A DNA stretch of 42,041 bases, from assembly GCA_027310975.1 (NCBI GenBank), contig DAICZV010000001.1:1-42041 (forward strand), written 5' to 3'. This stretch comes from a bacterium (GTDB taxonomy: Bacteria; Patescibacteriota; Minisyncoccia; UBA6257; GWB1-50-10). The position numbers were made by a program, and so were the translations under genes. Under the pieces are notes generated by a model. That model made no database searches. It saw only the letters and a list, made by a program, of their open reading frames with translations, and had not been told where the DNA came from. Shown one piece after another: positions 6,278 to 33,511 of the stretch (its first letter is position 1; each line of letters opens with the position of its first letter).

Positions 6278-6916
6278 CTATTTTACCAAATCGGTTATGG
6301 GGATACAATCGTCTTTCCGAAAATCTCCTACCCGCACCCGTTCCAGCGCGGCAATATAACCGCCGGTGCCGAGCGCTTGGCCGATATCGCGGGCCAGAGA
6401 CCGGATATAAACGCCGGGGCCGGTCACCGCTTTGATTTTCAAGTTAGGCCATTCATACGACATGAGTTTAAGCTCTTTTACTATGACGCGCCGCGGCTTC
6501 AGCTCCGGCGTCTGGCCGCTCCGCGCCGTTTTGTAGGCCCTTCGGCCGGCCACTTTAACGGCGCTGTAGGCCGGCGGCACCTGGTCTATTTCGCCGACGA
6601 AATTCGGCAAGATGTTGGCGATACCCTCTTGGGTGGGCCGCGGCGGATTAGCGACAGGCGTTTTATTCCCCTCCGCATCGTCGGTCGTGCTCCACTCGCC
6701 TAATCTGATCGTGGCAATGTACTCCTTTTCTTTATTTACGATGGAGCTTAGGAGTTTGGTGCTTTGCCCCGTCGCGATGACCAGAACCCCTTCCGCCAAC
6801 GGGTCCAGCGTGCCGGCATGGCCGACGCGCCGCTCCCCCGTCGCCCGGCGGACCCGGTCAACCATGTCGTGCGATGTCGGGCCTTTCGGTTTCCAAACGG
6901 CGAAGATGCGTTCCAT
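6278..6916 (-). CDS. truB: tRNA pseudouridine(55) synthase TruB
   Basis: VGHAGTLDPLAEGVL catalytic-Asp motif. I start the gene at MERIFAVWKPKGPTSHD (6916), because the longer ORF (to 6970) would run through the structured tRNA-Val trailer. Confidence 0.85.
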   Translation of the reverse strand: MERIFAVWKPKGPTSHDMVDRVRRATGERRVGHAGTLDPLAEGVLVIATGQSTKLLSSIVNKEKEYIATIRLGEWSTTDDAEGNKTPVANPPRPTQEGIANILPNFVGEIDQVPPAYSAVKVAGRRAYKTARSGQTPELKPRRVIVKELKLMSYEWPNLKIKAVTGPGVYIRSLARDIGQALGTGGYIAALERVRVGDFRKDDCIPITDLVK

Positions 6917-7022
6917 TGGTGGGCGTTGCTGGGACCCCGGTAGTATCAGCTTCGCTGAACTACGGGGCAAGTCGAACCGTATTAGGGCCTTTGCAATGCT
7001 TGCCCCGTTGCAAATTTTCCTG
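6917..7022 (-). ncRNA. Structured trailer of tRNA-Val (copy A of a tRNA-linked hairpin element)
   Basis: Contains the hairpin CCCCGTAGT-TCAGC-GAA-GCTGA-TACTACCGGGG (6967-6935) and ends GCAACGCCC-ACCA immediately before the truB ATG. Two related copies occur at 33107-33198 and 33271-33395. Confidence 0.5.
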
Positions 7023-7094
7023 TGCGCCTTGGAAGGATCGAACTTCCGACCTTTCCGATGTGAACGGAACGCTCTACCACTGAGCTAAAGGCGC
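7023..7094 (-). tRNA. tRNA-Val (anticodon CAC)
   Basis: Manual cloverleaf: GCGCCTT TA GCTC AGTGGTA GAGC G TTCCG TTCACAT CGGAA AGGTC GGAAG TTCGATC CTTCC AAGGCGC A. 72 nt, CCA not encoded. Confidence 0.9.
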
Positions 7095-7136
7095 GTACGA
7101 ATTTGCAATGGGGTGAATGCAACGCCCCACGCCGTT

Positions 7137-33106: not shown

Positions 33107-33198
33107 CCTTGAATGAGGAGCGAATGGTGGACCGTACCGGAATCGAACCCCGCAGTATACGCCTGCGGCGTAACTACGGGGCAGGCCGCTGACCTTTG
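33107..33198 (-). ncRNA. tRNA-linked hairpin element, copy B (trailer of tRNA-Ala) with a tRNA 3'-end-like tail
   Basis: Hairpin CCCCGTAGT-TACGC-CGCAG-GCGTA-TACTGCGGGG (33181-33148), then GGTTCGATTCCGGTACGGTCCACCA (T-loop, acceptor-like 3' strand and an encoded CCA). Confidence 0.5.
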
Positions 33199-33270
33199 TG
33201 GACCCGAGGAGAATTGGACTCCTGACCTCCGCTTTGCAAAAGCGGCGTTCTACCACTGAACTACGGGCCC
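33199..33270 (-). tRNA. tRNA-Ala (anticodon TGC) with a non-canonical T-loop
   Basis: GGGCCCG TA GTTC AGTGGTA GAAC G CCGCT TTTGCAA AGCGG AGGTC AGGAG TCCAATT CTCCT CGGGTCC A. The G3:U70 identity pair is present. The T-loop reads UCCAAUU (C at position 55). Confidence 0.85.
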
Positions 33271-33395
33271 AACTATTGTGGGCGTGGAAGGAACCCCGGT
33301 AGTATCCGCCTACGGCGGAACTACGGGGCAAGTCGGACCAGCGATCTCTGTTTTACCGTGCCCCGCACTAAAATTGCGCCTCTGTCATTGATTTG
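33271..33395 (-). ncRNA. tRNA-linked hairpin element, copy C (spacer between tRNA-Ile and tRNA-Ala)
   Basis: GCGCAATTTTAGTGCGGGG is complementary to the tRNA-Ile leader. The hairpin is CCCCGTAGT-TCCGCC-GTA-GGCGGA-TACTACCGGGG (33328-33294), and the tail is ...ACGCCCACAA. Confidence 0.5.
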
Positions 33396-33467
33396 TGCGC
33401 ATGGTAGGAATCGAACCTACGGCCTCGTTCTTATCAGGAACGCGTTCTACCACTGAACTACATGCGC
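33396..33467 (-). tRNA. tRNA-Ile (anticodon GAT)
   Basis: GCGCATG TA GTTC AGTGGTA GAAC G CGTTC CTGATAA GAACG AGGCC GTAGG TTCGATT CCTAC CATGCGC A. 72 nt, no encoded CCA. Confidence 0.9.
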
Positions 33468-33511
33468 AATTTTCAGTGCGGGGTCAGGCAGCGTTCTACC
33501 GCCTTAAACAG

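What the first reader, a model, noticed from the sequence alone, without database searches (positions are those of the whole stretch)
6935..6967. Conserved long hairpin directly after three tRNA genes, with compensatory changes between copies
All sequences below are on the minus strand. Copy A follows tRNA-Val: CCCCGTAGT-TCAGC-GAA-GCTGA-TACTACCGGGG. Copy C follows tRNA-Ile (33328-33294): CCCCGTAGT-TCCGCC-GTA-GGCGGA-TACTACCGGGG. Copy B follows tRNA-Ala (33181-33148): CCCCGTAGT-TACGC-CGCAG-GCGTA-TACTGCGGGG. The outer arms are conserved. The inner stem differs in sequence in every copy but stays base-paired (TCAGC/GCTGA, TCCGCC/GGCGGA, TACGC/GCGTA). That pattern is what selection on RNA structure would produce. 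The first 13 nt resemble a tRNA 5' end (compare GGGCCCGTAGTTCAG of tRNA-Ala), so the element may be tRNA-derived. I cannot match it to any described RNA family.
Basis: seen in the sequence. Interest (0 to 1): 0.7.

Follow-up and report, generated by a model that had tools for sequence, protein, structure and literature searches.

The report
Palindromic insert marking displaced tRNA genes
The three hairpins are real and belong to a large, apparently undescribed family of short palindromic DNA insertions in CPR (Patescibacteria) bacteria; each sits inside the wreck of an old tRNA gene that a new copy has replaced, so they record tRNA gene turnover and are probably not a functional tRNA-derived RNA.

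Summary
There are three 33-35 nt hairpins, each with its own base-paired inner stem, and they are the only copies in the window. A covariance model built on them finds about 100 more copies in CPR genomes, with strong covariation.

The interpretation needs changing. Close relatives of this genome carry intact tRNA-Val and tRNA-Ala genes at the same sites and no hairpin. In the window those ancestral genes survive only as fragments. Each hairpin, with a 4-nt head (CTTG or CCTG), is inserted without target duplication at the T-loop of such a fragment. A functional replacement tRNA with different stems lies next to it. Two of these replacements are enclosed by CCCC...GGGG inverted repeats inserted at position 35|36 of the old anticodon loop.

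Across genomes the hairpin occurs in either orientation relative to tRNAs and genes. It shows no excess of G-U over A-C mismatches, favours c(GNA)g triloops, and rarely has a U-tail. Rfam and viral contigs have nothing like it.

Similar CCCC...GGGG arms flank small GIY-YIG nuclease ORFs lodged at tRNA, tmRNA and RNase P RNA genes.

Best reading: a REP/MITE-like, non-autonomous DNA element tied to serial tRNA gene replacement. The mobilising enzyme is inferred, not shown.

The parts
6935..6971 (-). Inserted unit A: 4-nt head CTTG (6968-6971) plus hairpin CCCCGTAGT-TCAGC-GAA-GCTGA-TACTACCGGGG (6935-6967). It splits the T-loop of the displaced tRNA-Val after TTCGA.
   Evidence: Relatives L119, L122 and L123 have the uninterrupted sequence GGTTCGA|TCCCAGC.
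6919..6934 (-). 3' end of the displaced tRNA-Val (TCCCAGCAACGCCCAC: rest of the T-loop, T-stem 3' strand, acceptor 3' strand, discriminator). It runs up to 2 nt before the truB start codon at 6916.
   Evidence: 16 of 16 identical to the 3' end of the intact tRNA-Val of L119, L122 and L123.
6972..6998 (-). Middle piece of the displaced tRNA-Val: CAT TGCAA AG (anticodon loop 36-38 and stem 3' strand), a scrambled variable region and T-stem 5' strand, then GGTTCGA.
   Evidence: the pseudo-Val pieces are 50 of 58 identical to the L119 tRNA-Val.
6999..7016 (-). 3' arm AATTTGCAACGGGG (7003-7016) plus tail CAAG (6999-7002) of the inverted repeat that encloses the functional tRNA-Val. The stretch ACGGGGCAAG is complementary to CTTGCCCCGT at the head of unit A.
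   Evidence: 14-bp arms at 7003..7113.
7022..7094 (-). Functional replacement tRNA-Val(CAC), GCGCCTT...AAGGCGC. All four stems differ from the relatives' tRNA-Val by paired changes, while the loops are the same.
   Evidence: 70 bits; 56 of 73 identical to L119, with the differences confined to stems.
7100..7113 (-). 5' arm CCCCATTGCAAATT of the inverted repeat enclosing tRNA-Val. It is inserted after TTCA, between nt 35 and 36 of the old anticodon loop.
7114..7128 (-). 5' piece of the displaced tRNA-Val (GGGGCGTT GCATTCA: acceptor 5' strand, D-arm deleted, anticodon stem 5' strand and loop up to A35).
33294..33332 (-). Inserted unit C: CTTG (33329-33332) plus hairpin (33294-33328). It splits the T-loop of the displaced tRNA-Ile after TCCGA.
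33277..33293 (-). 3' end of the displaced tRNA-Ile (TTCCTTCCACGCCCACA). Its acceptor 3' strand CACGCCC matches the tRNA-Ile of relative L126.
33333..33356 (-). Middle piece of the displaced tRNA-Ile (GTAAAACAG AGATC GCTGG TCCGA).
   Evidence: the pseudo-Ile pieces are 52 of 61 identical to the L126 tRNA-Ile.
33357..33375 (-). 3' arm AATTTTAGTGCGGGG (33361-33375) plus tail CACG of the inverted repeat enclosing tRNA-Ile.
33395..33467 (-). Functional tRNA-Ile(GAT), GCGCATG type. It is 72 of 73 identical to the tRNA-Ile of relative L124, which has neither arms nor hairpin.
33468..33483 (-). 5' arm CCCCGCACTGAAAATT, inserted after CTGA (A35) of the old tRNA-Ile anticodon loop.
33484..33503 (-). 5' piece of the displaced tRNA-Ile (GGCGGTAGAACGCTGCCTGA).
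   Evidence: It is absent from L124, where the tRNA-Ile starts 1 nt after the stop codon.
33198..33270 (-). Functional replacement tRNA-Ala(TGC), GGGCCCG...CGGGTCC. Its stems differ from the relatives' tRNA-Ala (GGGCCGT...ACGGTCC).
   Evidence: 69 bits.
33186..33195 (-). Variable loop and T-stem 5' strand of the displaced tRNA-Ala (AGGTC AGCGG; the ancestral sequence is AGGTC ACCGG).
33148..33185 (-). Inserted unit B: CCTG (33182-33185) plus hairpin (33148-33181), lying between the T-stem 5' strand and the T-loop of the displaced tRNA-Ala.
33128..33147 (-). T-loop, T-stem 3' strand and acceptor 3' strand of the displaced tRNA-Ala (TTCGATT CCGGT ACGGTCC A).
   Evidence: With 33186-33195 it is 28 of 30 identical to the L124 tRNA-Ala.

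Best explanation
The hairpin is a short palindromic DNA insertion and probably not an RNA gene. The unit is 37-45 nt.

It belongs to a CPR-wide class of inverted-repeat units with CCCC...GGGG ends. These units lodge in the loops of tRNA genes (T-loop, D-arm, anticodon loop).

In this window three resident tRNA genes (Val, Ile, Ala) have been displaced by new functional copies. The new Val and Ile genes arrived inside CCCC...GGGG arms, inserted between nt 35 and 36 of the old anticodon loop. Each old gene also carries one hairpin unit at its T-loop.

The inner stem covaries because the two halves of a palindrome must stay complementary. The likely reason is hairpin or cruciform formation in single-stranded DNA, which fits the preferred c(GNA)g triloops.

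Shown here:
- insertion and absence at orthologous sites;
- the exact insertion points, with no target-site duplication;
- the nesting of new genes inside old ones;
- the wide distribution in CPR genomes and the lack of orientation preference.

Inferred:
- that the unit is mobilised in trans as a non-autonomous REP/MITE-like element, or is carried in with the replacement cassette;
- that the agent is a structure-specific nuclease. The candidate is the 67-112 aa GIY-YIG domain-only proteins, whose genes are flanked by CCCC-initial inverted-repeat arms (some matching the arms that enclose tRNAs) and sit at tRNA, tmRNA and RNase P RNA genes.
For: 1. Empty sites. Relatives with 81-84% identical TruB have one intact tRNA-Val directly upstream of truB and no hairpin. 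Relatives L124 and L126 have tRNA-Ile and tRNA-Ala 22-33 nt apart with no hairpin. The covariance model finds no copy in those loci.

2. Fragments. The pieces flanking the hairpins reassemble into the relatives' tRNAs: 50 of 58 identical for Val, 52 of 61 for Ile, 28 of 30 for Ala, and 16 of 16 for the Val 3' end. The junctions carry no duplicated target bases.

3. The one tRNA in the window that was not replaced, tRNA-Leu(GAG), is the same allele type as in L126 and has no hairpin.

4. The same architecture recurs elsewhere. In 17 of the 29 tRNA-hairpin pairs (tRNA upstream within 120 nt) the sequence starting 0-2 nt after the hairpin is a diverged copy of the tRNA end that faces it. Nesting runs up to 3 layers deep in L005, L113 and L047, with a constant 35|36 junction. 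In L078, removing the two inserts restores a perfect tRNA-Pro.

5. Arms of 9 bp or more flank 10 of 32 tRNAs near a hairpin and 5 of 63 others.

6. DNA-like behaviour:
- 12 same-strand versus 14 opposite-strand tRNA neighbours;
- no orientation bias relative to genes, and 116 of 124 copies intergenic;
- 451 Watson-Crick, 16 G-T and 13 A-C pairs;
- loops GAA in 35 of 101 and GNA in 47 of 101, with TTC in none;
- only 15 of 124 have a T-rich tail.

7. No recurrent neighbouring protein family, no Rfam family and no match in viral contigs.

8. GIY-YIG link. 66 of 73 small GIY-YIG ORFs are flanked by inverted arms of 9-27 bp, mostly starting with CCCC. One (L207) has CCCCGCACCTTTT.../...AAAAGGTGCGGGG, the type that encloses tRNAs. 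17 of 73 have a co-oriented tRNA within 150 nt. ORF-less hairpins made of the same arms exist.
Against: - No transposase or nuclease gene was found with arms of the hairpin's own type (CCCCGTAGT/ACTACGGGG). No hairpin of this subfamily occurs in the 80 GIY-YIG loci. The link to GIY-YIG therefore rests on shared ends and shared tRNA context only.
- The three window copies have three different inner stems, so they are not fresh copies of one another.
- Sequence conservation of the outer stem, its bulges and the loop across very distant CPR lineages is stronger than expected for junk. It implies a conserved recognising factor that has not been identified.
- The G-T pair at the fifth stem position (33 of 101) and the GNA loop bias are strand-specific. 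They would also fit an RNA role on that strand.
- About three quarters of the copies have no detectable tRNA nearby.
- No transcription data are available.
Confidence: 0.6

Rival explanations
1. The hairpin is not independently mobile. It is a fixed end-module or scar of a homing-type tRNA replacement event. A nuclease cuts the resident tRNA gene, repair copies in a foreign cassette (arms, new tRNA, hairpin), and the nuclease ORF is later lost.
For: - All three replaced tRNAs in the window carry exactly one hairpin in the old gene's T-loop; the unreplaced tRNA-Leu carries none.
- In 26 of 31 tRNA-adjacent cases the tRNA lies on the CCCCGTAGTT side of the hairpin.
- GIY-YIG ORFs sit inside arms that begin with CCCC like those around tRNAs, next to tRNAs with duplicated tRNA ends.
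- From my own knowledge there are precedents. T4 SegB acts in the phage tRNA cluster. In Allomyces a GIY-YIG element displaced part of atp6.
Against: - Most copies (about 75%) have no tRNA within 110 nt.
- Copies occur as rcF-spacer-F pairs and in the D-loop and anticodon loop of separate pseudogene layers.
- Identical hairpins occur on different contigs of one genome: L015 and L020; L035 and L054.
- These points argue for independent spread.
Confidence: 0.25
2. The hairpin is a structured RNA element, perhaps tRNA-derived, selected for its fold. It would act in cis on tRNA transcripts in processing, stability or 3'-end formation.
For: - Very strong covariation and conserved bulges.
- Proximity to tRNAs.
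- Strand-specific GNA loops and a G-U pair at one outer position.
- In the window all three copies are co-oriented with the tRNAs.
Against: - Absent from close relatives, including one with a 72/73-identical tRNA-Ile.
- Equal numbers in both orientations next to tRNAs and genes.
- G-U pairs no more frequent than A-C mismatches in the covarying helix.
- Most tRNAs lack it.
- It lies inside decaying pseudogenes.
- No Rfam match.
Confidence: 0.12
3. The hairpin is a Rho-independent (or U-tract-less) transcription terminator placed after tRNA genes.
For: A GC-rich stem in intergenic DNA. Some copies are followed by T runs (15 of 124).
Against: - The three window copies have no T-tract, and the terminator scan does not call them.
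- Copy C lies between two co-transcribed-looking tRNAs.
- There is no orientation preference.
- A terminator does not need a conserved stem sequence, bulges and loop across phyla.
Confidence: 0.05
4. The hairpins and tRNA fragments are att-site remnants of integrase-mediated integration of genomic islands or prophages into tRNA genes.
For: Duplicated tRNA 3' ends next to an intact tRNA are the classic signature. T-loop and anticodon-loop positions are classic integrase sublocations (own knowledge).
Against: - The intact tRNA differs from the fragment in both halves, so it is a whole new gene and not a hybrid.
- 5' fragments are duplicated as often as 3' fragments.
- The 'island' is only about 50-150 nt.
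- There is no identity block at the junctions.
- No recurrent integrase lies nearby.
- There are no matches in viral contigs.
Confidence: 0.04
5. The hairpins are introns (archaeal BHB-like or otherwise) of tRNA genes that still function after splicing.
For: They sit at loop positions of tRNA-like sequences. In L078 the interrupted gene is otherwise perfect.
Against: - No bulge-helix-bulge geometry: a continuous stem, with no 3-nt bulges around a 4-bp helix.
- The window pseudogenes lack a D-arm or a 5' half and have broken T-stems.
- A second, intact gene for the same anticodon always lies next door.
Confidence: 0.02

Closest known systems
REP/BIME elements and REPtrons (REP-associated tyrosine transposases, RAYTs)
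   Same: - Short (about 35 nt) imperfect palindromes in extragenic DNA.
- A conserved sequence that includes GTAG, and conserved stem irregularities.
- Both orientations occur, often as inverted pairs with a short linker (rcF-spacer-F in L061 and L067, and the Saccharibacteria P1-P2-P3 form).
- Related inverted arms flank a small nuclease gene, as REPs flank RAYT genes.
   Different: - GTAG lies inside the stem, not 5' of it.
- No Y1/HUH transposase was seen; the only arm-flanked ORFs found are GIY-YIG domain-only proteins.
- There is a marked preference for loops of tRNA genes and for nesting.
- The sequence is conserved across a whole superphylum, not one species group.
MITEs and other palindromic insertion elements that enter RNA genes (e.g. 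Rickettsia palindromic elements)
   Same: Non-autonomous, inverted-repeat-bounded, dispersed and multi-copy. They are present or absent between relatives. Some relatives of the hairpin (CCCCGTTAGAAAT.../...ATTTCTAACGGGG pairs) have 4-nt direct repeats on both sides.
   Different: The three window insertions have no target-site duplication and carry an asymmetric 4-nt head. The unit is far smaller than typical MITEs. No matching autonomous IS is known.
Free-standing GIY-YIG homing endonuclease cassettes that displace host gene segments (T4 SegB in the tRNA cluster; the Allomyces atp6 element) - recalled from memory
   Same: A selfish nuclease gene associated with conserved RNA or protein genes. 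A foreign functional copy replaces the resident one, whose remnant persists as a pseudogene beside it. The replacement allele differs in sequence.
   Different: - Here the replacement tRNA is nested inside the old gene at a fixed loop position, enclosed by inverted repeats.
- The nuclease ORF is absent from the window.
- The proteins are catalytic-domain-only (67-112 aa) and have no DNA-binding domain.
- Cleavage has not been shown.
Integron attC sites
   Same: An imperfect palindrome with conserved outer boxes, a centre of variable sequence and length, and conserved extrahelical bases on one strand. Function is thought to lie in folded single-stranded DNA.
   Different: No R''/R' consensus (RYYYAAC/GTTRRRY), no cassette array with an integron integrase, and the copies are single units inside tRNA remnants.
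tRNA-gene att duplications left by tyrosine integrases
   Same: Partial tRNA copies beside an intact tRNA, with T-loop and anticodon-loop break points.
   Different: The whole gene is replaced, 5' fragments occur as well as 3' fragments, the inserts are tiny, and no integrase or identity block is present.

Membership tests
Any Rfam 15 RNA family | Score at or above the family's gathering threshold. | tested here: not met
   Only tRNAs pass in the window and in 12 loci that carry the element. Nothing relevant appears at E<=10 around copies B and C.
REP / BIME (RAYT-associated) | Short imperfect palindrome, extragenic, many copies, both orientations. | tested here: met
   116 of 124 copies are intergenic, in both orientations. 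The window has 3 copies in 42 kb. Several loci or genomes hold 2-5 copies.
REP / BIME (RAYT-associated) | Conserved GTAG/GTGG tetranucleotide immediately 5' of the palindrome, outside the stem. | tested here: not met
   GTAG is invariant but base-paired within the stem, as TAGT with ACTA.
REP / BIME (RAYT-associated) | A cognate Y1 (HUH) RAYT gene flanked by REPs in the same genome. | tested here: inconclusive
   No recurrent protein family lies within 2.5 kb in 118 loci. Whole genomes could not be scanned.
MITE | Terminal inverted repeats plus a target-site duplication. | tested here: not met
   Comparison with empty sites shows no duplicated bases at any of the three window insertions. Related CCCCGTTAG-type pairs do show 4-nt direct repeats.
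Intrinsic terminator | GC-rich hairpin followed by a U-tract, oriented with the upstream gene. | tested here: not met
   The window copies have no T-tract. Only 15 of 124 copies have a T-rich tail. There is no orientation bias.
Archaeal-type BHB tRNA intron | Two 3-nt bulges separated by a 4-bp helix at the exon-intron junctions, in a host tRNA that is otherwise functional. | tested here: not met
   The stem is continuous, with 1-nt bulges only. The host fragments lack a D-arm or 5' half and have broken T-stems.
Integron attC | R''/L''...L'/R' boxes with the GTTRRRY core, in cassette arrays next to intI. | tested here: not met
   The outer boxes are CCCCGTAGTT/ATACTNNGGGG and there are no arrays. 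The presence of intI was not tested.
Integrase att duplication at tRNA genes | A hybrid tRNA plus an identical partial repeat bounding an element that encodes an integrase. | tested here: not met
   The functional tRNA differs from the fragment in all stems, 5' and 3'. The spacers are 12-109 nt. No recurrent integrase is present.
Free-standing GIY-YIG homing-endonuclease cassette | A GIY-YIG ORF present within the element. | tested here: not met
   No GIY-YIG ORF of 55 aa or more is in the window (the jackhmmer search covered window ORFs). No hairpin of this subfamily is in the 80 GIY loci. The relationship is by shared arm ends and tRNA context only.
Free-standing GIY-YIG homing-endonuclease cassette | Site-specific cleavage of the element-free allele, and resistance of the element-bearing allele. 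| not testable with these tools
   This needs biochemistry. The observation that replacement tRNAs differ in every stem is compatible with it but is not a test.

The most novel reading that the evidence does not exclude
CPR bacteria carry a previously undescribed mobile system. Hairpin-ended (CCCC...GGGG) cassettes, moved by catalytic-domain-only GIY-YIG nucleases that recognise folded single-stranded DNA, insert into the loops of tRNA, tmRNA and RNase P RNA genes. Over time they serially replace tRNA genes with foreign alleles and leave onion-like layers of old gene halves. The finding's hairpin would be the minimal, ORF-less form of this system.
Probability: 0.35. Interest if true: 0.8.

Novelty: new variant of a known kind. 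Interest (0 to 1): 0.62.

Why it matters
- **tRNA gene turnover.** If the reading is right, tRNA genes in the small CPR genomes are repeatedly overwritten by foreign alleles. The hairpin would be a simple sequence marker for finding and roughly dating such events. This bears on how minimal genomes keep an essential single-copy gene set under attack from selfish DNA.
- **Annotation.** Pseudo-tRNA layers, arm-flanked tRNAs and insertions in RNase P RNA can confuse gene callers.
- **A testable enzyme.** The 67-112 aa GIY-YIG proteins become concrete candidates for structure-specific nucleases.
- **A methodological caution.** Strong 'RNA-like' covariation can arise from DNA palindromes.

Tried and rejected
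- **Larger tRNA-like, tmRNA-like or permuted tRNA gene.** I tried to read the hairpin plus its flanks this way. The acceptor strands do not pair, and ARAGORN and Rfam call nothing.
- **A riboswitch-like alternative helix 'P2'** (ACGGGGCAAG with CTTGCCCCGT). It is better explained as the facing tails of two inverted units. In L078 the apparent helix is the old anticodon stem.
- **BHB intron.** Rejected on geometry.
- **Group II intron domain 5.** The resemblance was considered from memory only; the other intron domains are absent.
- **DNA uptake sequence.** The copy density is too low, and an inner stem would not be needed.
- **Conserved synteny.** The largest neighbour cluster (the 'UvrB' cluster, 9 loci) turned out to be mixed, mostly distant ORFs (median 1 kb from the hairpin) rather than one conserved neighbour gene.
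- **Viral origin.** There are 0 matches in IMG/VR.
- **A long inverted repeat in L114** with hairpins near both ends looked like a full-length element. It is an inverted repeat of about 190 bp around an unrelated ORF next to a serine recombinase.
- **Literature.** Four full-text searches found no description.
- **Chance matches.** The 19-base search pattern is expected (my own rough arithmetic) to give some tens of chance matches in 596 Gb. About 6-8 of the 121 matches (L029, L051, L065, L092, L102, L112, perhaps L010) have no paired inner stem, and I regard them as chance.
Full report
**1. Observation**

Each lies close to a tRNA gene. Hairpin A (6935-6967) lies 54 nt after tRNA-Val. Hairpin C (33294-33328) lies 66 nt after tRNA-Ile and 23 nt before tRNA-Ala. 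Hairpin B (33148-33181) lies 16 nt after tRNA-Ala.

Each hairpin folds at -18 to -24 kcal/mol, with z-scores of -4.4 to -5.2. The 10-mer CCCCGTAGTT occurs exactly only at these three places. Rfam finds only the tRNAs.

**2. The family**

I scanned one genome per GTDB species with the pattern CCCCGTAGTT-N9-17-ATACT-N2-3-GGGG. Almost all are Patescibacteria/CPR: Saccharibacteria, Parcubacteria groups, Moran-, Doudna- and Lloydbacteria, and others. The same pattern gives 0 matches in 2.9 million viral contigs.

About 6-8 matches have no paired inner stem and look like chance. The rest have a paired inner stem of very varied sequence.

A covariance model built from 34 copies finds only the three known copies in the window, at 55.6-65.5 bits; the next match scores 15.8 bits. 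In 99 loci plus the window it finds 103 copies.

Pair counts on that alignment:
- All 6 inner pairs change on both sides, and 98% of cells are paired.
- The covariation score is 0.334 against 0.092 in shuffles, with 0 of 500 shuffles reaching it.
- Slid controls reach 0.064 or less.

**3. What surrounds the window copies**

TruB homologues place the window in Patescibacteria. Three relatives with 81-84% identical TruB have a single intact tRNA-Val (GGGCGTT...AACGCCC) just upstream of truB and no hairpin.

The window instead reads, on the minus strand:
- a 5' piece of that gene, GGGGCGTT GCATTCA;
- the arm CCCCATTGCAAATT;
- a different, functional tRNA-Val, GCGCCTT...AAGGCGC, in which every stem is changed by paired substitutions and the loops are unchanged;
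- the arm AATTTGCAACGGGG plus CAAG;
- the old gene's CAT TGCAA AG ... GGTTCGA;
- CTTG plus hairpin A;
- the old gene's TCCCAGCAACGCCCAC, which is 16 of 16 identical to the relatives.

Joined together, the pieces are 50 of 58 identical to the relatives' tRNA-Val.

The second site gives the same result. Relatives L124 and L126 have tRNA-Ile and tRNA-Ala 22-33 nt apart with no hairpin.

In the window, tRNA-Ile is enclosed by the arms CCCCGCACTGAAAATT and AATTTTAGTGCGGGG. These are inserted after CTGA (A35) of an older tRNA-Ile of the L126 type, whose T-loop carries CTTG plus hairpin C. The pseudo-Ile pieces are 52 of 61 identical to the L126 gene.

A new tRNA-Ala has replaced the first two thirds of the old one. 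The remaining third carries CCTG plus hairpin B between its T-stem 5' strand and its T-loop, and is 28 of 30 identical to the L124 gene.

No bases are duplicated at any of the three hairpin junctions.

L124 has a tRNA-Ile 72/73 identical to the window's, with no arms, fragments or hairpin. The hairpin is therefore dispensable for that tRNA.

The window's fourth tRNA, Leu(GAG), is the same allele type as in L126 and has no hairpin.

**4. Generality**

Of 124 copies, about 31 lie within 110 nt of a tRNA. In 26 of these the tRNA is on the CCCCGTAGTT side. The tRNA is on the same strand as the hairpin in 12 cases and on the opposite strand in 14.

In 17 of the 29 tRNA-hairpin pairs (tRNA upstream within 120 nt), the sequence starting 0-2 nt after the hairpin is a diverged copy of the tRNA end that faces it. 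In same-strand cases this is the T-loop to the 3' end. In opposite-strand cases it is the acceptor 5' strand to the D-loop.

Cleaner examples:
- In L024 the two halves of an old tRNA-Glu (acceptor GCCGCTA/TAGCGGC) flank a new tRNA-Glu enclosed by CCCCCACCTTT/AAAGGTGGGGG.
- In L078, removing the two inserts restores a perfect tRNA-Pro(CGG).
- L005, L113 and L047 show two or three concentric layers of old halves. The junction is constant, between nt 35 and 36 of the anticodon loop, and a 4-nt tail (CAAG or CAGG) follows the 3' arm.

The hairpin of this finding also occurs in D-loops and anticodon loops (L047, L005, L107, L111). Read on the other strand it has the same layout as the arms: CCCC-palindrome-GGGG-CARG.

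Arms of 9 bp or more flank 10 of 32 tRNAs near a hairpin and 5 of 63 others.

**5. DNA or RNA?**

Evidence favouring a DNA-level element:
- The inner helix has 451 Watson-Crick pairs, 16 G-T and 13 A-C, so wobble pairs are not preferred.
- 116 of 124 copies are intergenic.
- Between co-directional genes the hairpin is in sense orientation in 21 cases and antisense in 28.
- Only 15 of 124 have a T-rich tail. The window copies are not called as terminators.

Two features are strand-specific:
- The loop is GAA in 35 of 101 copies and GNA in 47 of 101, and never TTC. From my own knowledge, c(GNA)g triloops are unusually stable in single-stranded DNA.
- One outer stem position is G-U in a third of copies.

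I take these together as favouring a DNA palindrome that acts when folded in single-stranded DNA. A secondary RNA role cannot be excluded.

**6. Possible agent**

No protein family recurs within 2.5 kb of the hairpin. Small ORFs consisting only of a GIY-YIG catalytic domain (67-112 aa) did turn up beside tRNA remnants (L091, L113, L045) and beside a tmRNA gene (L012). One of them lies inside perfect CCCC...GGGG arms (L061).

Homologues in unrelated gene neighbourhoods carry the same arms: CCCCCACCACTTTTT[ORF]AAAGTGGTGGGGG. One sits at the RNase P RNA gene, and an ORF-less hairpin made of the same arms lies further inside that gene.

In 80 metagenome loci, 66 of 73 such ORFs have inverted arms of 9-27 bp, mostly starting with CCCC. 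One (L207) has CCCCGCACCTTTT.../...AAAAGGTGCGGGG, the type found around tRNAs. Seventeen of 73 have a co-oriented tRNA within 150 nt, usually 1-18 nt downstream. Several of these have the first 7-8 nt of the tRNA duplicated upstream of the element.

No hairpin of this finding's own subfamily lies in those loci. The link is therefore one of architecture and is not demonstrated.

**7. Conclusion**

The hairpin is real, conserved and covarying, but it is best read as a small palindromic DNA insertion. It marks displaced tRNA genes within a CPR-wide system of CCCC...GGGG-ended units. It resembles REP/BIME elements and MITEs in form, and resembles homing-endonuclease-driven gene displacement in its consequences. 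It fails the defining tests of each of these families (see the membership table).

Four literature searches found no description.

The mechanism of insertion and the enzyme remain inferred.

Noticed in passing
L061:6617-6905; L136:985-1275; L145, L146; L149-L228: ORFs consisting only of a GIY-YIG catalytic domain (67-112 aa) are flanked by inverted repeats of 9-27 bp, mostly starting with CCCC (66 of 73). They sit at tRNA 5' ends (17 of 73 within 150 nt, co-oriented), beside a tmRNA gene (L012), and at the RNase P RNA gene just before GGAGGAAAGTCCGGGC (L136, and apparently L163, L169, L171, L180, L183, L222).
   Followed up: partly
L025:3635-3699; L027:2015-2110; L032:1979-2077; L068:984-1093; L072:7856-7925; L036:5479-5510 and others: Pairs CCCCGTTAGAAAT(T)...(A)ATTTCTAACGGGG enclose 4-110 nt of AT-rich filler. 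Identical 4-nt repeats often lie on both sides (TGAA, TCAA, CGAA, TTGA, TAAAA), as in a MITE with a target duplication. In L068 and L113 the right end abuts a TTGACA-17-TAnAAT promoter-like site.
   Followed up: partly
L015, L020, L035, L056, L061, L073, L094, L105, L106, L116 (about 200 nt around the hairpin): Saccharibacteria copies form a larger composite. A hairpin CCCCGAACCAATCC...GGATGGTACGGGG is followed by a spacer of about 30 nt and then the finding's hairpin in inverted orientation. The whole is closed by long AT-rich inverted repeats made of 7-nt periodic units (TTTAGGA, TTTCGAA, TTTTGCA) whose sequence differs between genomes.
   Followed up: partly
L114:1306-2520: Inverted repeats of about 190 bp, each containing a copy of the hairpin, flank a 227-aa membrane-anchored ORF. 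A large serine recombinase gene (94-1251) lies next to it. This may be an invertible segment.
   Followed up: no
window:6176-6207 (-): A short hairpin, CCTG-CCCCGGGCC-TTCG-TGCCTGGGG, lies about 70 nt after the truB stop. It has the same CCTG-CCCC...GGGG frame but scores only 14 bits with the model. A conventional terminator-like hairpin (CCGCTCCGA...TCGGAGCGG) follows it.
   Followed up: no
L107:1780-1830; L113 upstream of tRNA-Val(cac) and around tRNA-Val(tac): Other GC-rich hairpins of unrelated sequence (CCTGCCTGCCGGCAGGCAGG; CCCGCCTCGG...CGAGGCAGG; TCCGCCACGGCGGA; TTCGCCGTGGCGAA) occupy the same D-loop and T-loop positions of pseudo-tRNAs.
   Followed up: no
L005, L062, L063, L064, L070, L071 (record titles): Contigs titled 'uncultured Gammaproteobacteria' carry typical copies and nested tRNA layers. 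One of these contigs is 876 kb. The labels may be wrong and the genomes may be CPR.
   Followed up: no
L119:1-657: The gyrB gene of a close relative has a Pfam intein-splicing hit, so it contains an intein.
   Followed up: no
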